Origin: a virus
Lineage: Duplodnaviria; Heunggongvirae; Uroviricota; Caudoviricetes
Reading direction: 5' to 3' (one strand)
Length of the DNA stretch: 16,721 bases
IMG/VR virus record: IMGVR_UViG_2617270976_000017
Location: 1-16,721 of that record
Positions 1 through 7,029 of the stretch are shown here, in pieces. A program made the translations under genes and the position numbers. Position 1 is the stretch's first letter. Every line of letters starts with the position of its first letter. Under the pieces are notes generated by a model. The model saw nothing but the letters and a program-made list of their open reading frames with translations, was not told the DNA's origin and did not search any database.

Positions 1-378
1 CCTGCTGACCATTGTCTGCATGATGTTCAGGATATGAGTACGATTAATCATCCCCGGGCTGACCTGAGCAAAGGGCAGTACGGCTGTGTCGGACAGGGCT
101 TACATATTGCCAAAAAACTGCTTCCGTATATCCCTAATAACGCGGGGATCCTGCTGGTACCATGCTGTCGTGGTGGTTCGGCATTCACCCAGGGCACGGA
201 GGGGACATTCAGCGAGTCCACGGGGGCCAGTCAGGATTCGGCTCGCTGGGGAGTGGGTAAGCCGTTATATCAGGATCTGCTTTTCCGCACGAAGGCAGCA
301 TTGCAGAAAAACCCGAAAAACGTTTTGCTGGCGATATGCTGGATGCAGGGGGAATTCGATATGACGAATGCCAGTTAG
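1..378 (+). CDS. 3' portion of a hypothetical prophage protein; reading frame is open from base 1, so probably 5'-truncated by the window edge
   Basis: Frame 1 has no stop from position 1 to TAG at 376-378; the ORF track starts it at ATG 34 only because that is the first Met. GC-rich like the phage backbone. No family recognised with confidence (a weak impression of an SGNH/esterase-like 'W-x-QGE-x-D' block, not verifiable here). Confidence 0.4.
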   Translation, partial: PADHCLHDVQDMSTINHPRADLSKGQYGCVGQGLHIAKKLLPYIPNNAGILLVPCCRGGSAFTQGTEGTFSESTGASQDSARWGVGKPLYQDLLFRTKAALQKNPKNVLLAICWMQGEFDMTNAS

Positions 379-587
379 TGCTGGTGAGCCTTGACGGGCT
401 GATCTCCTATGCAGCAAAGGTTCATCTCAAAGTAAGACGAACGCTATGACAAACCAAGATTCTATAGACCTATCTGATCTTCGTGGAATGGTCAGTTTTC
501 CAGACAAAAGGTAATCACCATAGTCGTATGGCTATGAATCTTGTTGCTGCAGATAAGCATTTTGTGATTGAAGTGGTCAAATCTCTC

Positions 588-644
588 AAATGCAGTAAAA
601 TGCAGTGCGCTATAATTCAATAACGGAGGGAGTAAGGAGAAGTC
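588..644 (+). promoter_or_regulatory. putative promoter/RBS region for the 645..1265 gene: tandem AAATGCAGT x2 (588-606), TATAAT (611-616), strong Shine-Dalgarno GGAGGG/AAGGAGA (625-640)
   Basis: Perfect -10 hexamer 29 nt upstream of ATG 645; double SD motif 5-15 nt upstream of the ATG; no convincing -35, so promoter call is weak. Confidence 0.3.
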
Positions 645-1265
645 ATGAAAGATCAAGATGTTAGGTTCGCGGTGCATCATAAGCTTTTGAAAGAATCGCA
701 TTTAGATCCAGACTGCCTTGTGGTCGATGAATTTTCCATATCCCTTGGCGCCAGTAGAGCAGACATTGCTGTAATAAATGGTGTTATACACGGGTACGAG
801 CTCAAAAGTGAATATGACTCTTTGGAGCGTTTGCCTCTTCAAATCAAGCATTATTCTTCTGTAATGGACAAGGTTACTCTTGTCGTAGCTGAGAAACACC
901 TTGAGGGAGCATTAAAGTTAATCCCAGGTTGGTGGGGCGTTAAAACGGTTTCTGTTGGGCCAAAAGGCGCCATTCTTATAAAGCACATGCGTGGAGAAAA
1001 GCTTAATCGAAACCATGACACATTGATGCTCGCTCAATTGCTTTGGAAAGATGAATGTATCGACGTACTTGAACGATGGGGCTATTCCAAAGGAATCAAA
1101 AGCAAGCCCCGATTTGAGTTATGGAATATTATTGCGGAAAATATTCCAATAGCGAATCTCAGGCTTGAAGTCAGAACAGCCTTAAAGAAACGCGTAGGCT
1201 GGAAAGTTAAGGCTTGGCAGGCTGAGTCTGCGCCAACCAATAAAGCTGTCTCACGACTAACGTAA
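645..1265 (+). CDS. hypothetical 206-aa protein with a PD-(D/E)xK-like nuclease signature (..RADIAVINGVIHGYELKSE..); accessory (moron) gene
   Basis: Long ORF with strong RBS; AT-richer than the flanking phage structural genes; Asp followed ~12 residues later by E-L-K in hydrophobic beta-strand-like context, as in restriction-endonuclease-fold proteins. Family assignment not possible without HMM search. Confidence 0.65.
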   Translation: MKDQDVRFAVHHKLLKESHLDPDCLVVDEFSISLGASRADIAVINGVIHGYELKSEYDSLERLPLQIKHYSSVMDKVTLVVAEKHLEGALKLIPGWWGVKTVSVGPKGAILIKHMRGEKLNRNHDTLMLAQLLWKDECIDVLERWGYSKGIKSKPRFELWNIIAENIPIANLRLEVRTALKKRVGWKVKAWQAESAPTNKAVSRLT

Positions 1266-2274
1266 TATGGTGCGTATGTGCAACTTTACGCCATTCTTTA
1301 GAGCCGCCAGATTTGTTAGCGCCTAATGATCTTTGGTAAATGTAATCATCCCCCCAACTAAATTTGGAGCCAAAGACTTGATACTCTGGCGAACTAACAA
1401 GGGTAGTACATAAGTTTTTAGTTTGGCCCCATCCATTTCCTTTAACTGCGGTACCTTTTACAAAGATCCATGAGGTATCGTTCGAATATCTCACTGAGAC
1501 ATACTGAGACATGAAGCGTGGGTCTACGCTCGTAATGGTAGAGCTAGCGGTGGGATAATCACTAAAACTTGGCGTTCTTCCATTGCTAAAATTCTGTACT
1601 ACGTACATCCAAAGATCGTATTCATGGCGCGGAATATGATGAACTTGATGTTGCGGTATCCCTGCCTGTGATGCCGGGTATGCGGTTGAAGATAAAATCA
1701 AGTTTCTCCACGGAGCTTGGCCTGATAATGTGTTGACCATGCTTAATGCTTGTTGTTTTAAACTATCAGTTGCGTTTTGAATATCTCCAAAATCAATGAT
1801 TACATCAATTAAACTAGGATGAATATTTAAGTGGTTAACCAGACTTGTGAATTGGTGCCATGTCTGGGGGGTGATAGATATAGCGAGCCCATTGATTAAG
1901 TTGCGTTGAACAGCATGTATATAGTTTGTTGAATATGCGGGAGAAACAACAGGGATAATTTCCTTACCATTTACTCTAGCATCTTGGATACACATATCTA
2001 GAGGATGATGGCGGCTCGAACCATGTTTATCTAAATATTTAACATCCAGCAAAACAGGACGATTGGCTTTCCAGGATGCCGCAAGGTTAATACCGAAGTC
2101 AGATAAGTAAGAACTCAAACTCTTCTTGTAGCATTCGTTTTCATAATCCCAGTCTATGTCTGGAATGGTAATGATCGGAGTAAAACCAGAGAGCGTAGTT
2201 TGATCTAAAAGCATCAGAGATTCATATTCAGCAGGCTTCCATTTCAGCTGTGGATAATATTGATGTTGACTCAT
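1207..2274 (-). CDS. hypothetical 355-aa protein, convergent to and overlapping the 3' end of 645..1265; accessory gene
   Basis: Long minus-strand ORF; ATG at 2274-2272 preceded by a perfect AAGGAG (complement of 2280-2285) with 5-nt spacing; same AT-rich composition as its neighbour. No recognisable lambda homolog. Confidence 0.65.
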   Translation of the reverse strand: MSQHQYYPQLKWKPAEYESLMLLDQTTLSGFTPIITIPDIDWDYENECYKKSLSSYLSDFGINLAASWKANRPVLLDVKYLDKHGSSRHHPLDMCIQDARVNGKEIIPVVSPAYSTNYIHAVQRNLINGLAISITPQTWHQFTSLVNHLNIHPSLIDVIIDFGDIQNATDSLKQQALSMVNTLSGQAPWRNLILSSTAYPASQAGIPQHQVHHIPRHEYDLWMYVVQNFSNGRTPSFSDYPTASSTITSVDPRFMSQYVSVRYSNDTSWIFVKGTAVKGNGWGQTKNLCTTLVSSPEYQVFGSKFSWGDDYIYQRSLGANKSGGSKEWRKVAHTHHITLVVRQLYWLAQTQPAKP

Positions 2275-2470
2275 TAAAACTCCTTAAAATCTTTACTTAT
2301 CCTAAGTATAGTGTTATGGCGTAACGCCAATTGTTTTTATACACTTGAAAACATTGGGAAAAGTTGAGCTATATCTAAATTTACAAAATTGGATGTTATA
2401 GAAATCGAGGTTTCAACTAGGCATGGAACTGCAAAATTTTTAATGCCTGCACGCGAAAGTCGTTGGCGGG

Positions 2471-2497
2471 TCCTTTCCGGTGATCCAGATCGTTACG
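2471..2497 (+). other. cosQ-like segment immediately upstream of cosN
   Basis: TCCTTTCCGGTGATCC...GTTACG matches my recollection of the last ~27 bases of the phage lambda genome (right end). Confidence 0.55.
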
Positions 2498-2509
2498 GGG
2501 CGGCGACCT
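2498..2509 (+). other. cosN: 12-nt cohesive-end sequence GGGCGGCGACCT
   Basis: Exact match to the lambda 12-nt cohesive end, followed by CTCGCGG(T)TTTTC-CTATTTATGAAAATTTT as at the lambda left end. Confidence 0.8.
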
Positions 2510-2684
2510 CGCGGTTTTTCACTATTTATGAAAATTTTTCAGGGAAAATCGTGTCGGTACTTCTCGAATATAACTTTTTGTTTTTTTTAATATTGCATTC
2601 ATAAATGTCCGACATGAAAGTGTCCGAAAATGCCTTTTTTTGGCGTTTTCATGTCGGGCCTTGTATTTGATAATGAGTTGTTCT
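2510..2684 (+). promoter_or_regulatory. cosB-like terminase binding region with three oppositely oriented core elements (TGTCGG at 2552-2557, CCGACA at 2609-2614, TGTCGG at 2652-2657) and an AT-rich segment between the first two
   Basis: Position between cosN and the Nu1 start, +/-/+ orientation and spacing (about +54, +111, +154 from cosN) mirror the lambda R3-I1-R2-R1 layout, but the element sequence differs from lambda's. Confidence 0.55.
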
Positions 2685-3233
2685 ATGAAGGTTAATAAAA
2701 AGAGGCTTGCCGAAATTTTTAACGTGGACCCGCGGACGATTGAACGCTGGCAGTCTCAGGGGCTCCCTTGCGTCTCCAAAGGCAGTAAGGGCATTGAATC
2801 TGTATTTGATACTGCCATGGCAATTCAGTGGTATGCGCAGAGGGAAACTGATATCGAAAACGAAAAGCTCCGCAAAGAACTGGCCGATTTGCGTGCGGCA
2901 GCGGAGTCAGATTTACAACCCGGCACCATTGACTATGAACGCTACCGGCTCACAAAAGCGCAGGCAGATGCGCAGGAACTGAAAAATGCCCGTGAAGACG
3001 GAGTGGTGCTGGAAACTGAACTATTTACCTTCATTCTGCAACGTGTGGCACAGGAGATTTCGGGGATACTTGTGCGTGTGCCGTTGACATTACAGCGTAA
3101 ATATCCGGACATTTCACCATCACACCTTGATGTGGTGAAAACTGAAATCGCGAAAGCCTCCAATGTTGCAGCTAAGGCCGGTGAAAACGTGGGCGGGTGG
3201 ATCGATGATTTCAGACGCACAGAAGGCAGCTAA
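2685..3233 (+). CDS. nu1: terminase small subunit (lambda Nu1 homolog)
   Basis: [12 protein letters not shown]...[12 protein letters not shown]...[49 protein letters not shown] aligns along its length with lambda gpNu1 as recalled. Start taken at ATG 2685 (the ORF track's 2640 uses an upstream TTG). Confidence 0.9.
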
Positions 3234-5133
3234 TGCAGCCGGTGCGATAGCTACAGGGCTTTTATCTCTCATTATTCCTGTTCCACTGACGACAGTTCAG
3301 TGGGCCAATAAACATTATTACCTTCCTAAAGAGTCGTCTTATACCCCGGGGCGGTGGGAAACACTGCCGTTTCAGGTTGGCATCATGAACTGTATGGGCA
3401 ACGATTTGATTCGCACTGTTAACCTGATTAAATCTGCCCGTGTTGGTTATACAAAGATGTTGCTGGGAGTGGAGGCTTATTTTATTGAGCATAAATCACG
3501 CAACAGCCTTCTTTTTCAGCCCACGGACTCAGCTGCTGAAGATTTTATGAAATCTCATGTTGAGCCAACGATAAGGGATGTTCCTGCATTGCTGGAGCTG
3601 GCTCCATGGTTCGGAAGAAAACACCGCGATAATACGCTCACCCTGAAGCGTTTTTCCTCCGGTGTGGGTTTCTGGTGTCTGGGGGGAGCGGCAGCAAAAA
3701 ACTACCGTGAAAAATCCGTGGATGTGGTTTGTTATGACGAGCTTTCCTCGTTCGAACCGGATGTTGAAAAAGAGGGTTCGCCAACCCTGCTGGGGGATAA
3801 ACGTATTGAGGGCTCTGTATGGCCAAAATCCATTCGCGGCTCGACGCCTAAAATCAAAGGCTCCTGCCAGATCGAAAAAGCCGCTAACGAGTCGGCACAT
3901 TTCATGCGTTTTTATGTGCCCTGTCCGCACTGTGGGGAGGAGCAGTATCTGAAATTTGGCGATGATGCCTCGCCTTTCGGTCTTAAGTGGGAGAAGAATA
4001 AGCCAGAAAGTGTTTTCTACCTTTGTGAGCATCATGGCTGTGTGATCCATCAGTCTGAGCTTGACCAGAGTAACGGGCGGTGGATCTGTGAAAACACGGG
4101 CATGTGGACTCGTGACGGTCTGACATTTTTCAGCGCCGCGGATAATGAAATTCCGCCGCCGCGCTCCATCACATTCCATATCTGGACGGCGTACAGTCCG
4201 TTCACCACCTGGGTACAGATTGTCTATGACTGGCTGGATGCACTGAAAGATCCCAACGGCCTGAAAACCTTTGTGAACACCACGCTGGGCGAGACCTGGG
4301 AAGAGGCCGTGGGCGAAAAACTCGATCACCAGGTGCTGATGGATAAGGTTGTGCGTTACACGGCTGCGGTGCCTTCCCGGGTGGTTTATCTGACGGCGGG
4401 CATTGACTCGCAGCGAAACCGTTTTGAGATGTATGTCTGGGGATGGGCTCCGGGAGAGGAAGCCTTTCTGGTGGATAAAATCATCATTATGGGGCGTCCC
4501 GATGAGGAAGAGACGCTGTTACGTGTGGATGTGGCGATCAACAAAAAATACCGCCATGCAGACGGAACCGAAATGACCATTTCCCGTGTCTGCTGGGACA
4601 CCGGGGGGATCGATGGCGAAATTGTCTATCAGAGGTCAAAAAAACACGGTGTTTTCCGGGTGCTGCCGGTAAAAGGTGCATCTGTTTATGGCAAGCCGGT
4701 GATCACCATGCCAAAAACCCGCAATCAGCGGGGCGTGTATCTGTGCGAAGTGGGGACGGACACCGCAAAAGAAATTCTCTATGCCCGTATGAAAGCCGAT
4801 CCCACGCCTGCGGATGAAGCCACGTCGTATGCCATCCGTTTTCCTGATGATCCGGAGATTTTTTCGCAGACAGAGGCGCAGCAACTGGTGGCGGAAGAGC
4901 TTGTGGAGAAGTGGGAAAAAGGAAAGATGCGTCTGCTGTGGGATAACAAAAAGCGGCGTAACGAAGCGCTGGACTGCCTGGTGTATGCCTACGCGGCATT
5001 ACGTGTGTCCGTGCAACGCTGGCAGCTTGATCTGGCTGTACTGGCAAAATCCCGGGAAGAAGAGACGACCCGGCCAACCCTTAAAGAACTGGCAGCGAAG
5101 CTGTCCGGAGGAGTGAATGGTTACAGTCGCTGA
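3205..5133 (+). CDS. A: terminase large subunit (lambda gpA homolog)
   Basis: Strong colinear similarity to lambda gpA ([24 protein letters not shown]..., [33 protein letters not shown]..., [10 protein letters not shown]...). Start placed at ATG 3205 (MISDAQ...), overlapping the Nu1 3' end as in lambda. Confidence 0.95.
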
Positions 5134-5323
5134 ACTGCAGGCGCTGCGTCAGGCGCGCCTTGATTTATTAACCGGTAAACGGGTGGTGTCTGTCCAGAAA
5201 GATGGTCGCAGAATTGAATATACGGCAGCTTCTCTGGATGAGCTTAACCGGGCGATCAATGATGCGGAGTCGGTACTGGGGACAACCCGCCGTCGCCGTC
5301 GTCCGCTGGGAGTGAGGTTATGA
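5117..5323 (+). CDS. W: head-tail joining / head completion protein (lambda gpW homolog, 68 aa)
   Basis: 68-aa ORF with LLTGKRVVSVQKDGRRIEYTA core matching lambda gpW; overlaps A stop and B start (ATGA) as in lambda. Confidence 0.9.
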   Translation: MVTVAELQALRQARLDLLTGKRVVSVQKDGRRIEYTAASLDELNRAINDAESVLGTTRRRRRPLGVRL

Positions 5324-7029
5324 AACGAACGCCTGTCCTGATTGATGTGAACGGCGTTCCGCTTCGGGAGAGCCTCAGCTACAACGGTGGCGGTGCAGGA
5401 TTTGGCGGGCAAATGGCAGAGTGGTTGCCACCCTCGCAGAGTGCCGATGCGGCCCTGCTGCCCGCGTTGCGTCTGGGGAATGCCCGTGCAGATGATCTGG
5501 TGCGCAATAACGGAATAGCGGCCAATGCGGTGGCCCTGCATAAGGATCACATTGTCGGGCATATGTTTCTGATTAGCTACCGTCCGAACTGGCGCTGGCT
5601 GGGGATGCGGGAGACCGCGGCAAAAAGTTTTGTCGATGAGGTGGAGGCGGCCTGGTCAGAATACGCAGAAGGGATGTTTGGTGAGATCGACGTGGAAGGG
5701 AAACGCACGTTTACGGAATTTATCCGTGAAGGTGTGTGCGTTCATGCGTTTAACGGCGAAATCTTTGTGCAGCCGGTCTGGGATACGGAGAGTACGCAAC
5801 TGTTTCGTACGCGTTTTAAAGCCGTGAGTCCGAAACGGGTGGACACGCCAGGACACGGTATCGGGAACCGTTTTCTGCGGGCCGGTGTGGAGGTTGATCG
5901 ATATGGCCGTGCCGTTGCGTACCATATCTGTGAGGATGATTTTCCTCGCTCCGGGAGTGGACGATGGGAACGGATCCCGCGTGAACTACCCACCGGGCGT
6001 CCGGCCATGCTGCATATTTTCGAGCCGGTGGAGGACGGGCAGACCCGTGGAGCCAATCAGTTTTACAGCGTTATGGAACGGCTGAAGATGCTCGATTCCC
6101 TGCAGGCAACACAGCTTCAGTCGGCCATAGTGAAGGCGATGTATGCAGCGACGATTGAAAGTGACCTTGATACCGAAAAGGCCTTTGAATATATCGCCGG
6201 TGCGCCGCAGGGGCAGAAGGATAATCCGCTTATTAATATTCTGGATAAGTTCTCCACCTGGTATGACACGAATAGCGTGACGCTGGGCGGTGTCAAAATT
6301 CCGCACCTTTTCCCCGGTGATGATCTGAAACTTCAGACCGCGCAGGATTCAGACAATGGATTTTCGGCGCTTGAACAGGCGCTGCTGCGGTATATCGCCG
6401 CCGGTCTTGGCGTTTCCTACGAACAGTTGTCCCGTGATTACTCGAAGGTCAGTTACTCAAGTGCCCGCGCATCCGCCAATGAGTCGTGGCGCTATTTTAT
6501 GGGGCGGCGAAAATTTATTGCGTCCCGGCTGGCCACGCAGATGTTTTCCTGCTGGCTGGAAGAGGCACTTCTTCGGGGGATTATTCGTCCGCCACGGGCA
6601 CGGTTTGATTTTTATCAGGCGCGATCAGCCTGGTCACGGGCTGAGTGGATTGGAGCCGGAAGAATGGCCATTGACGGGCTCAAGGAGGTTCAGGAATCAG
6701 TGATGCGCATTGAGGCCGGACTGAGCACGTATGAGAAAGAGCTGGCGCTGATGGGCGAGGATTATCAGGACATTTTCCGCCAGCAGGTCAGGGAATCTGC
6801 AGAGCGGGAAAAAGCCGGACTCTCACGTCCGGTGTGGATAGCGCAGGCGTATCAGCAGCAGATAGCGGAGAGTCGCAGGCCGGAAGAGGAGACAGTCGCG
6901 GATGAATATGACCAGCCGACGTCCGATATCACGAAGGATAAATGCAGCAAATGCCTGAGCGGCTGTAAGTTTCGCAATAACGTCGGCAACTTTGGCGGCT
7001 TCCTTTCCATTAACAAACTTTCGCAGTAA
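5320..7029 (+). CDS. B: portal protein (lambda gpB homolog) whose last codons are replaced by an in-frame fusion to the 3' end of tail gene L
   Basis: Residues 1-~525 colinear with lambda gpB (GGGAGFGGQ..., FEPVEDGQTRGANQFYSVME..., LRYIAAGLGVSYEQLSR...); the final 44 residues VADEYDQPTSDITKDKCSKCLSGCKFRNNVGNFGGFLSINKLSQ match the C-terminus of lambda gpL. Confidence 0.85.
   Translation: MKRTPVLIDVNGVPLRESLSYNGGGAGFGGQMAEWLPPSQSADAALLPALRLGNARADDLVRNNGIAANAVALHKDHIVGHMFLISYRPNWRWLGMRETAAKSFVDEVEAAWSEYAEGMFGEIDVEGKRTFTEFIREGVCVHAFNGEIFVQPVWDTESTQLFRTRFKAVSPKRVDTPGHGIGNRFLRAGVEVDRYGRAVAYHICEDDFPRSGSGRWERIPRELPTGRPAMLHIFEPVEDGQTRGANQFYSVMERLKMLDSLQATQLQSAIVKAMYAATIESDLDTEKAFEYIAGAPQGQKDNPLINILDKFSTWYDTNSVTLGGVKIPHLFPGDDLKLQTAQDSDNGFSALEQALLRYIAAGLGVSYEQLSRDYSKVSYSSARASANESWRYFMGRRKFIASRLATQMFSCWLEEALLRGIIRPPRARFDFYQARSAWSRAEWIGAGRMAIDGLKEVQESVMRIEAGLSTYEKELALMGEDYQDIFRQQVRESAEREKAGLSRPVWIAQAYQQQIAESRRPEEETVADEYDQPTSDITKDKCSKCLSGCKFRNNVGNFGGFLSINKLSQ
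6895..7029 (+). pseudogene. L: 3' remnant of tail tip gene L (last ~44 codons) fused to B
   Basis: C-terminal gpL sequence including the Cys-rich CSKCLSGC block; immediately followed by K as in lambda gene order L-K-I-J. Confidence 0.7.

What the first reader, a model, noticed from the sequence alone, without database searches (positions are those of the whole stretch)
588..2330. AT-rich two-gene accessory cassette next to cos: candidate undescribed defence or exclusion module
Seen in sequence: two long ORFs (206 aa on +, 355 aa on -) sit in a block that is visibly AT-richer than the surrounding terminase and structural genes, and both have strong Shine-Dalgarno sites. The 206-aa protein has a D-x12-E-L-K arrangement (RADIAVINGVIHGYELKSE) typical of PD-(D/E)xK nuclease folds. 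Established knowledge: the interval between the lysis module and cos in lambdoid prophages is a recognised site for horizontally acquired morons, and prophage hotspots are enriched in anti-phage systems. Inference: this is a two-component nuclease-based defence, abortive-infection or toxin/immunity module. I have an unverified recollection that a ~200-aa PD-(D/E)xK-like 'sce7726-family' protein pairs with a ~350-aa partner ('sce7725' / Pfam Beta_protein-like); this pair may belong there, but I cannot confirm that from sequence alone.
Basis: partly seen in the sequence, partly recalled or inferred. Interest (0 to 1): 0.8.

Follow-up and report, generated by a model that had tools for sequence, protein, structure and literature searches.

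The report
Minimal beta/cII phage-defence-type gene pair
The two genes are real and form a distant, stripped-down relative of the "beta" and "cII" genes of satellite phage P4, a TIM-barrel protein plus a nuclease that also sit at the centre of two proven anti-phage systems; this two-gene form has never been tested on its own.

Summary
Observation confirmed. Two intact ORFs lie in an AT-rich cargo block (36-44% GC against 48-59% in the flanks) just left of a phage-21-type cos: 645-1265 (+), 206 aa, and 1207-2274 (-), 355 aa. They converge, and their 3' ends overlap by 59 bp.

The 206-aa protein belongs to the sce7726 / Phage_P4_cII family. It has a confidently predicted PD-(D/E)xK fold and invariant E29, D40, E52, K54 and Q66. 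The 355-aa protein is a full-length Pfam Beta_protein, predicted to be a TIM barrel.

P4 gop-beta-cII and PD-lambda-2 are published defence systems built on these families. This cassette lacks Gop and lacks HigB/M78, so it belongs to neither.

In 93 of 93 cII-anchored loci that carry beta, from bacteria, CPR and one archaeon, beta and cII converge. In 90 of these the 3' ends overlap, mostly in one reading phase. The pair looks like the conserved core, with Gop or HigB/M78 as add-ons.

Defence by the bare pair is inferred, not shown. The mechanism is unknown. I rate it a new variant of a known kind, of moderate interest.

The parts
372..2460 (.). AT-rich cargo block (moron) holding the two genes. 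The left edge is the deletion junction of this window. The right edge is where homology to other prophages with phage-21-type cos resumes.
   Evidence: GC 0.36-0.44 against 0.48-0.59 in the flanks. Only 126 of 1,201 matching E. coli genomes cover the block; the rest match only from about 2460 rightwards. Relatives carry other cargo at this site.
574..616 (+). Candidate promoter region for the cII-like gene: TGGTCA-16-TAAAAT at 574-601, and an exact TATAAT at 611-616 with no good -35. Consensus matches only.
   Evidence: (the scan found no more promoter-like sites than shuffled sequence gives) and the sequence.
634..639 (+). Shine-Dalgarno AAGGAG, 5 nt upstream of the ATG at 645.
   Evidence: Sequence.
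645..1265 (+). cII-like / sce7726-family gene, 206 aa. N-terminal PD-(D/E)xK nuclease domain (about residues 1-118), a C-terminal four-helix domain (about 120-185), and a disordered, non-conserved tail (192-206).
729..854 (+). Codons of the predicted nuclease active site: E29 (729-731), D40 (762-764), E52 (798-800), K54 (804-806), Q66 (840-842), Y70 (852-854).
   Evidence: E29, D40, E52, K54 and Q66 are identical in 84 of 84 diverse homologues, and Y70 in 82 of 84.
1207..1265 (.). 59-bp convergent overlap of the two 3' ends. It encodes cII residues 188-206 on one strand and beta residues 337-355 on the other. No intrinsic terminator or significant RNA structure.
   Evidence: The convergent arrangement holds in all 93 loci with beta and the overlap in 90, with overlap length = 2 mod 3 in 70 of 74.
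1207..2274 (-). Beta-family gene, 355 aa: a TIM barrel with a C-terminal helical extension.
2280..2285 (-). Shine-Dalgarno AAGGAG (read on the - strand), 5 nt upstream of the beta ATG.
   Evidence: Sequence.
2317..2329 (.). Inverted repeat TGGCGTAACGCCA in the AT-rich leader upstream of beta. It could be an operator, or a + strand terminator-like element. Function not tested.

Best explanation
The cassette is the minimal two-gene form of the beta/cII module. It is carried as a moron in the Rz-cos cargo hotspot of a lambdoid prophage with phage-21-type packaging genes, and that prophage is lysis-defective in this window.

Shown:
- One gene encodes a PD-(D/E)xK nuclease-fold protein of the P4-cII / sce7726 family with an intact, invariant catalytic set.
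- The other encodes a TIM-barrel protein of the P4-beta family with invariant acidic, aromatic and His residues.
- The two genes face each other, their 3' ends overlap, and they are inherited as a unit across bacteria, CPR and one archaeon.
- The same pair is the shared element of P4 gop-beta-cII. It also sits in all sampled PD-lambda-2-like loci that carry beta.

Inferred:
- In the lysogen the pair acts as an anti-phage (superinfection-exclusion or abortive-infection) system.
- The cII-like nuclease is the DNA-directed effector.
- Beta is the partner that controls, activates or cooperates with it in response to an infecting phage. Gop (P4) or HigB plus an HTH-M78 peptidase (PD-lambda-2) would be lineage-specific add-ons placed upstream of beta.
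- Because no terminator separates the genes, each transcript must run into the other. This probably couples their expression by antisense RNA or transcriptional interference.
For: Family assignment.

Folds.

Active-site conservation: cII E29, D40, E52, K54 and Q66 in 84 of 84 homologues. Beta P33 and D239 in 79/79, D161, Y263 and H336 in 78/79, and E16, D77 and R216 in 77/79.

Architecture: beta lies next to cII in 93 of 95 cII-anchored loci. All 93 are convergent and 90 overlap at the 3' ends, median 44 bp. The overlap is in one phase in 70 of 74, and exactly 25 nt separate the conserved W186 and H336 codons in 63 of 77. In that class the conserved C-terminal motifs of both proteins are encoded on opposite strands of the same DNA.

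Co-inheritance: Mantel r = 0.85 between beta and cII pairwise identities; no permutation of 500 reaches it. In 38 of 38 beta-anchored viral contigs cII is present and convergent.

Link to defence: P4 has gop-beta facing cII, and gop-beta-cII protects against lambda and P1 (PMC9122126). A phage accessory gene triggers its toxicity (bioRxiv 10.1101/2023.04.06.535777). PD-lambda-2C is a beta protein required for defence (PMC9519451).

Add-on architecture: 9 of 48 locus groups have PD-lambda-2 A/B homologues directly upstream of beta. Three of three loci anchored on close PD-lambda-2B homologues show HigB(or none)-M78-beta facing cII.

Context: a cargo hotspot. In Pasteurella and Acinetobacter prophages beta lies immediately downstream of the cI-type S24 repressor on the same strand, the position of rexAB in lambda.
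Against: - No experiment in the searchable literature tests a Gop-less, HigB-less beta/cII pair.
- In both validated systems the identified toxic component is something else. In P4 it is Gop. In PD-lambda-2 it is the HTH-peptidase.
- The PD-lambda-2 clone extends only 396 bp past the beta gene. If ECOR42 has a convergent cII, the clone truncates it, which would mean cII is dispensable for that defence.
- The biochemical role of beta is unknown. Only generic TIM-barrel matches were found.
- Neither PADLOC model set calls this pair a system on its own.
- The cII-anchored sample was drawn with two peptide patterns, so it covers one subfamily.
- More distant cII-like genes occur alone in virulent phages.
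Confidence: 0.55

Rival explanations
1. Restriction-modification-like logic. Beta is a TIM-barrel enzyme that modifies DNA or a nucleotide, as the TIM-barrel DpdA/TGT enzymes do. The cII-like nuclease cuts DNA that lacks the mark. Convergent gene order would then be analogous to many type II R-M pairs.
Confidence: 0.12
2. An addiction or stabilisation module (toxin-antitoxin-like) that keeps the prophage or island in the genome and has no role against phages.
For: The P4 gop/beta pair behaves like a toxin-antitoxin pair (PMC9122126). The pair is often fused to a HigB/HigA-like module. It also occurs on chromosomes outside recognisable prophages. The cassette persists intact in a prophage that has lost its lysis genes.
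Against: Neither beta nor cII is the known toxin in the studied systems. Both validated relatives do protect against phage. Enzymatic active sites conserved over thousands of clusters are more than a simple neutralisation pair needs.
Confidence: 0.15
3. A phage life-cycle or DNA-repair function. The nuclease and its partner act on phage or host DNA during lysogenisation, recombination or repair. This is suggested by the name cII (from clear-plaque mutants of P4, from my memory of the older literature) and by the MmcB-like label on a homologue.
For: Some homologues are annotated 'regulatory protein' or 'DNA repair protein MmcB-like'. cII-like genes sit inside co-directional operons of virulent phages, without beta.
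Against: The cassette is present in only about 10% of otherwise similar prophages and is replaced by unrelated cargo in the rest, so it is not needed for the phage life cycle. It occurs in non-phage chromosomal sites. The P4 genes are non-essential (PMC9122126).
Confidence: 0.12
4. An inactive remnant: the genes are decaying passengers of a defective prophage.
For: The prophage in this window has lost its lysis genes. One strain has an IS2 inserted in the region (H1).
Against: Both ORFs are full length, keep all invariant residues, have strong ribosome-binding sites, and are about 100% identical in 126 genomes.
Confidence: 0.03

Closest known systems
P4 gop-beta-cII (DefenseFinder Rst_gop_beta_cll; PADLOC gop/beta/cll), Rousset et al. 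2022, PMC9122126
   Same: The same two protein families: beta of 355 aa in both, and cII with the same E...D...ExK...Q motif. Beta and cII converge in both. Both are carried as cargo next to cos on a mobile element.
   Different: No Gop: no homologue in the window or in any of the 94 other loci examined, and no ORF upstream of beta. Identity is only 22% (beta) and 27% (cII). P4 cII is 264 aa with a longer C-terminus. P4 has a 27-bp gap with a terminator where this cassette has a 59-bp overlap.
PD-lambda-2 (Vassallo et al. 2022, PMC9519451): HigB-like A, HTH-peptidase B, beta-like C
   Same: Component C is a PF14350 Beta_protein. The window's beta hits the PD-Lambda-2_C models at 4e-32. PD-lambda-2-like loci in other taxa carry a convergent, overlapping cII just like this one.
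   Different: There is no A or B gene here. The published definition has no cII. The PADLOC match covers only the C-terminal 60% of beta.
3dnx (SPO1766) and other small PD-(D/E)xK nucleases such as NucS and the Can2 nuclease domain
   Different: No significant sequence match to any solved structure. There is an extra conserved C-terminal helical domain (W134, E137, R183 invariant). The protein is obligately paired with beta.
Lambda rexAB and other lysogen-expressed exclusion genes (positional analogue)
   Same: In Pasteurella and Acinetobacter prophages beta lies directly downstream of the cI-type repressor on the same strand. It is a two-gene moron. That rexAB occupies this position in lambda is established knowledge.
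   Different: The proteins are unrelated. Here the pair lies at Rz-cos, not next to the repressor.

Membership tests
NCBIfam NF033832 sce7726 family | Whole-protein score at or above the curated cutoff (70 bits) | tested here: met
   184.1 bits, E 2.3e-54, profile positions 1-182 of 184.
Pfam PF26915 Phage_P4_cII | Match to the family model | tested here: inconclusive
   The model is absent from the local Pfam copy, which gave no hit. The 99%-identical cluster representative P0035 and all 120 listed homologues carry a precomputed PF26915 hit. P4 cII itself aligns at 27% identity, E 1e-18.
Pfam PF14350 Beta_protein | Whole-protein score at or above the gathering threshold (27 bits), full-length match | tested here: met
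   190.4 bits, E 8.2e-56, residues 6-342 against profile positions 1-342 of 342.
   The only NCBIfam hit at E <= 1 is a spurious ndhI match (12 bits against a cutoff of 302). That an sce7725 model exists in the library was not checked.
PD-(D/E)xK nuclease superfamily | Restriction-endonuclease-like alpha/beta core | tested here: met
PD-(D/E)xK nuclease superfamily | Catalytic D...(D/E)xK motif, conserved | tested here: met
   D40-x11-E52-L-K54 plus E29 and Q66, all 84 of 84. Catalysis itself cannot be tested with these tools.
TIM-barrel fold (beta protein) | Alternating beta/alpha barrel | tested here: met
gop-beta-cII system (Rst_gop_beta_cll) | Gop gene upstream of beta and co-directional with it | tested here: not met
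   No Gop homologue by phmmer or tblastn. No ORF of 25 aa or more on the - strand between 2275 and cos.
gop-beta-cII system (Rst_gop_beta_cll) | Beta and cII homologues, convergent | tested here: met
   PADLOC beta 3.5e-10 and cll 4.3e-31. Same orientation as in P4.
PD-lambda-2 | HigB-like component A | tested here: not met
   No such ORF in 380-2660. The PADLOC scan covered the two cassette proteins only and neither matched an A model.
PD-lambda-2 | HTH + M78/IrrE peptidase component B | tested here: not met
   Absent from the window. Present upstream of beta in 9 of 48 other locus groups.
PD-lambda-2 | Beta-like component C | tested here: met
   PDLC03984 4.4e-32 (residues 141-344) and PDLC03983 2.2e-25.
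Anti-phage defence system (functional class) | Reduces phage plating when expressed | not testable with these tools
   Only relatives with extra genes have been tested (PMC9122126, PMC9519451).

The most novel reading that the evidence does not exclude
Beta/cII is an autonomous, ancient two-enzyme immune module: a TIM-barrel enzyme plus a PD-(D/E)xK nuclease. It would be the real core of both gop-beta-cII and PD-lambda-2, with cII as an overlooked fourth gene of PD-lambda-2-type loci. It would work by a chemistry not yet seen in defence; for example, beta might make, remove or sense a nucleotide or DNA mark that gates the nuclease. Its dual-coding convergent 3' overlap, at fixed phase and with 25-nt spacing from bacteria to an archaeon, would be functionally required, either as antisense coupling or as a lock that prevents the two genes from being separated.
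Probability: 0.25. Interest if true: 0.8.

Novelty: new variant of a known kind. Interest (0 to 1): 0.55.

Why it matters
Two published E. coli defence systems, P4 gop-beta-cII and PD-lambda-2, have no known mechanism. They have been treated as unrelated three-gene toxin-antitoxin-like loci.

The comparison made here suggests they share one conserved core, beta/cII. That core also exists on its own in about 2% of complete E. coli genomes. The cII family alone has about 5,500 clusters at 50% identity.

If the bare pair is active, it is the simplest handle on the mechanism of the whole group. It would also extend current detection rules, which require Gop or HigB/M78 and so miss most occurrences.

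The conserved dual-coding convergent overlap is also an unusually clean natural case for studying why two genes stay physically interlocked.

Tried and rejected
- Gop search by phmmer and tblastn in the window and 94 other loci: only P4 itself.
- A third small gene in 380-2660: none plausible.
- sce7725 / NCBIfam match for the partner: none.
- Sequence search of the PDB with profiles of both families: nothing significant.
- Rfam scan of 1-3300: no hit.
- Terminator or RNA structure in the overlap: none; z-scores +1.3 and -0.3.
- Promoter scan: no more sites than shuffled sequence gives, so promoters remain unassigned.
- Long cII-family proteins of 316-395 aa, checked for fused domains: no Pfam hit; probably read-through of the antisense strand.
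- Broad beta-anchored census: alignments A3 and A4 were too divergent for the locus finder. Only the narrow A1 subfamily could be scanned, and it gave 38 of 38 with cII.
- Ghisotti et al. 1990 could not be read. Statements about it come from citing papers or my memory and are marked as such.
- One paper search was wasted on the phrase 'beta family protein', which returned TGF-beta papers.
- The ECOR42 PD-lambda-2 locus could not be retrieved, so whether it has a cII gene is unknown.
Full report
**1. The observation**

The window has two intact ORFs: 645-1265 on the + strand (206 aa) and 1207-2274 on the - strand (355 aa). Each has an AAGGAG ribosome-binding site 5 nt from its ATG.

They lie in a block of 36-44% GC. 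The terminase and head genes to the right are 48-59% GC, and the first 400 bases are 54%.

The genes converge and their 3' ends overlap by 59 bp. The quoted motif is present as D40-x11-E52-L-K54. The cohesive-end sequence GGGCGGCGACCT lies at 2497-2508, and the cos region matches phage 21 at 94-98%.

**2. Where it sits**

The same cassette is about 100% identical in 126 of 5,426 complete E. coli genomes. PGAP annotates it there as 'sce7726 family protein' and 'beta family protein'.

In an intact relative (strain DA33133, L001) it lies between the Rz lysis gene and the small terminase subunit. About 1,075 further genomes share only the cos side, from window about 2460. At the same place they carry other cargo: DUF6979, DUF1398 with YnfO, or Iss/Bor with a TonB-like gene. 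The Rz-cos interval is therefore a real cargo hotspot.

In this window, however, 3,026 bp present in L001 are missing. They carried the 3' two-thirds of a SASA esterase gene plus holin, YdfR, lysozyme and Rz. The junction is at about 372-377. No complete E. coli genome in the collection has this junction. The prophage here is lysis-defective but keeps the cassette intact.

No deposited phage genome carries the cassette at the DNA level.

**3. What the proteins are**

*The 206-aa protein.* It scores 184 bits against NCBIfam sce7726 (cutoff 70) and 4e-31 against the PADLOC model 'cll'. Its homologues carry Pfam PF26915, Phage_P4_cII. It aligns with P4 cII at 27% identity, E 1e-18.

E29, D40, E52, K54 and Q66 are identical in 84 of 84 diverse homologues. 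So are W134, E137 and R183 of the C-terminal domain.

*The 355-aa protein.* It matches Pfam Beta_protein over the whole profile, at 8e-56. It also matches PADLOC PD-Lambda-2_C (4e-32) and 'beta' (3.5e-10). It is 22% identical to P4 beta, which is also 355 aa.

Conserved in at least 77 of 79 diverse homologues are Y6, E16, P33, D77, D161, R216, D239, Y263, W328 and H336. D77 and D239 lie at the ends of predicted strands, and R216 directly follows one. I read this as an enzyme-like active site, but that is inference.

Neither family has a solved structure detectable by sequence. PHROGs lists both as 'unknown function'.

**4. Relation to known systems**

In P4 the order is gop (247-648, +), beta (651-1718, +) and cII (1746-2540, -). 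Beta and cII therefore converge there too, with a terminator between them.

Rousset et al. showed that gop-beta-cII, cloned with its native promoter, protects against lambda and P1. They cite Ghisotti 1990 for Gop being toxic without beta (PMC9122126). A phage accessory gene, orf184, triggers cell death through this system (bioRxiv 10.1101/2023.04.06.535777).

Vassallo et al. found PD-lambda-2. It comprises a HigB-like A, an HTH-peptidase B that is toxic alone and neutralised by A, and a P4-beta-like C that is needed for defence but not for neutralisation (PMC9519451).

The window has no Gop homologue. It has no A or B gene and no further ORF. It therefore fails a defining feature of each system.

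**5. The pair is the conserved core**

*Sampling.* A scan of one genome per species with the cII alignment returned 80 loci. They come from Gamma-, Alpha- and Betaproteobacteria, Myxococcota, Firmicutes, Bifidobacterium, Dehalococcoidia, Elusimicrobiota, three CPR lineages and the archaeon Ca. Methanosuratincola.

*Architecture.* With the loci fetched earlier, a beta gene lies next to cII in 93 of 95. One exception is a contig end. The other is a Xenorhabdus locus with cII alone.

- In all 93 the genes converge.
- In 90 the 3' ends overlap, by 4-110 bp with a median of 44.
- The overlap length is 2 mod 3 in 70 of 74.
- Exactly 25 nt separate the codons of cII W186 and beta H336 in 63 of 77 loci.
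- In that class the conserved C-terminal motifs of both proteins are read from opposite strands of the same DNA. These are cII ...LKxRxxWR and beta ...NHH(I/V)TKVVxxLA.
- The window's subfamily has a 39-nt insertion, giving a spacing of 64 nt, yet the genes still overlap.

*Co-inheritance.* Pairwise identities of beta and cII across loci correlate at r = 0.85, and none of 500 permutations reaches this. In viral contigs anchored on beta (narrow subfamily), 38 of 38 have a convergent cII.

*Add-ons.* The only recurrent neighbours lie directly upstream of beta on its strand, in 9 of 48 locus groups. They are an HTH-M78 peptidase (PD-Lambda-2_B, down to 7e-140) preceded by HigB (PD-Lambda-2_A, 1e-37) or by DUF6932.

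Three of three loci anchored on close PD-lambda-2B homologues show M78-beta facing cII with a 50-bp overlap. HigB precedes M78 in two of them. More distant HigB-M78 pairs on plasmids occur without beta/cII.

*My reading.* Beta/cII and HigB-M78 are independent modules. Gop and HigB-M78 are alternative add-ons to a beta/cII core. The published PD-lambda-2 clone ends 396 bp beyond beta, so it would truncate a cII gene if ECOR42 has one. I could not check this.

**6. Context elsewhere**

- In Pasteurella and Acinetobacter prophages beta lies immediately downstream of the S24-type repressor on the same strand, the position of rexAB in lambda.
- In Rac-SA53 the pair lies between early genes and hok.
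- In Gordonia phages it lies between the lysis genes and the integrase.
- In Burkholderia and an alphaproteobacterial MAG it stands alone in the chromosome.
- A second, divergent pair of the Rac-SA53 type is in 93 complete E. coli genomes.
- The cII family has 5,520 clusters at 50% identity with E <= 1e-3, and 1,374 with E <= 1e-30.

**7. Mechanism**

*Shown:* the two folds, the conserved catalytic-type residues, the obligate linkage, and the absence of any terminator or significant RNA structure in the overlap.

*Inferred:* the pair is expressed in lysogens from facing promoters, which I could not assign with confidence, and the transcripts overlap. The nuclease is the effector. Beta controls it or cooperates with it when a phage infects.

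Confidence differs by level:
- About 0.95 that this is a beta/cII module.
- About 0.55 that the bare pair is an anti-phage system.
- About 0.3 for the specific division of labour.

The rivals are a restriction-modification-like scheme, a pure addiction module, a phage life-cycle or repair role, and decay. They are listed with their tests in the rival explanations.

**8. Caveats**

- The cII-anchored sample was drawn with two peptide patterns, so it represents one subfamily.
- More distant cII-like genes stand alone inside operons of virulent phages, namely Myxococcus Mx4 and Bacillus Edson. Many Staphylococcus and Bacillus phages give weaker hits.
- In both validated systems the toxic part is not beta or cII.
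- The searchable library holds no test of a two-gene form. That library is incomplete.

**9. Verdict**

'Undescribed' is not, because the families and two related defence systems are published.

The cassette is a new variant of a known kind: the minimal core without the known toxic partners. Interest is moderate. It rests on the untested autonomy of the core and on the conserved dual-coding convergent overlap.

Noticed in passing
window 1-378, junction about 372-377: Relative to the intact prophage in E. coli DA33133 (L001), 3,026 bp are deleted: the 3' two-thirds of a SASA-family esterase gene plus holin, YdfR, lysozyme and Rz. ORF 34-378 is the truncated esterase. No complete E. coli genome in the collection shares this junction.
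   Followed up: partly
window 2496-2511: The 'terminator-like' hairpin reported by the scan is the phage-21-type cos cohesive-end sequence (GGGCGGCGACCT at 2497-2508), not evidence of a terminator.
   Followed up: yes
L003-L094 (63 loci); window 1200-1270: Exactly 25 nt separate the codons of cII W186 and beta H336 in 63 of 77 loci, and the conserved C-terminal motifs of both proteins are encoded on opposite strands of the same DNA. The window's subfamily has a 39-nt insertion here.
   Followed up: partly
L095 3705-6859, L096 3707-6887, L097 4001-6918, L047, L065: PD-lambda-2-like loci (HigB or DUF6932, then HTH-M78 peptidase, then beta) carry a convergent, overlapping cII gene that the published three-gene definition does not include. 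The published clone ends 396 bp past beta, so it would truncate such a gene.
   Followed up: partly
L105 2992-3561 (Myxococcus phage Mx4 p30); L104 2435-3028 (Bacillus phage Edson): Full-length or near full-length cII-like genes stand alone, without beta, inside co-directional operons of virulent phages. About 240 Staphylococcus and 30 Bacillus phage records give weaker N-domain hits. They could be DNA-metabolism nucleases or counter-defence decoys.
   Followed up: partly
L004 about 5001-5633 (+): In Gordonia phage DumpsterDude the cII homologue (43% identical to the window protein) is not annotated. A 216-bp ORF ('32') on the opposite strand is annotated instead. In phage Powerball the equivalent gene is called 'exonuclease'.
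   Followed up: no
L003 6001-7636 (Escherichia phage Rac-SA53): A second, divergent beta/cII pair (54% and 30% identity to the window proteins, 41-bp overlap) sits at a different prophage position. It is present in 93 of 5,426 complete E. coli genomes.
   Followed up: yes
NZ_CP115370.1 2716720-2720295 (hit H1): In strain CUVET17-972 the cassette region is interrupted by an IS2 element: the match is in two pieces and spans 3,576 bp instead of 2,240.
   Followed up: no
window 6894 onwards: Near-identity (99.9%) to the DA33133 prophage ends at window 6894, inside the portal gene region. This suggests a mosaic junction in the head genes.
   Followed up: no
L019 5001-5567; L142 3501-4217: Rare exceptions to the pairing. 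Xenorhabdus koppenhoeferi has cII followed by unrelated co-directional ORFs and no beta. One viral contig has a truncated, probably frameshifted, beta.
   Followed up: no
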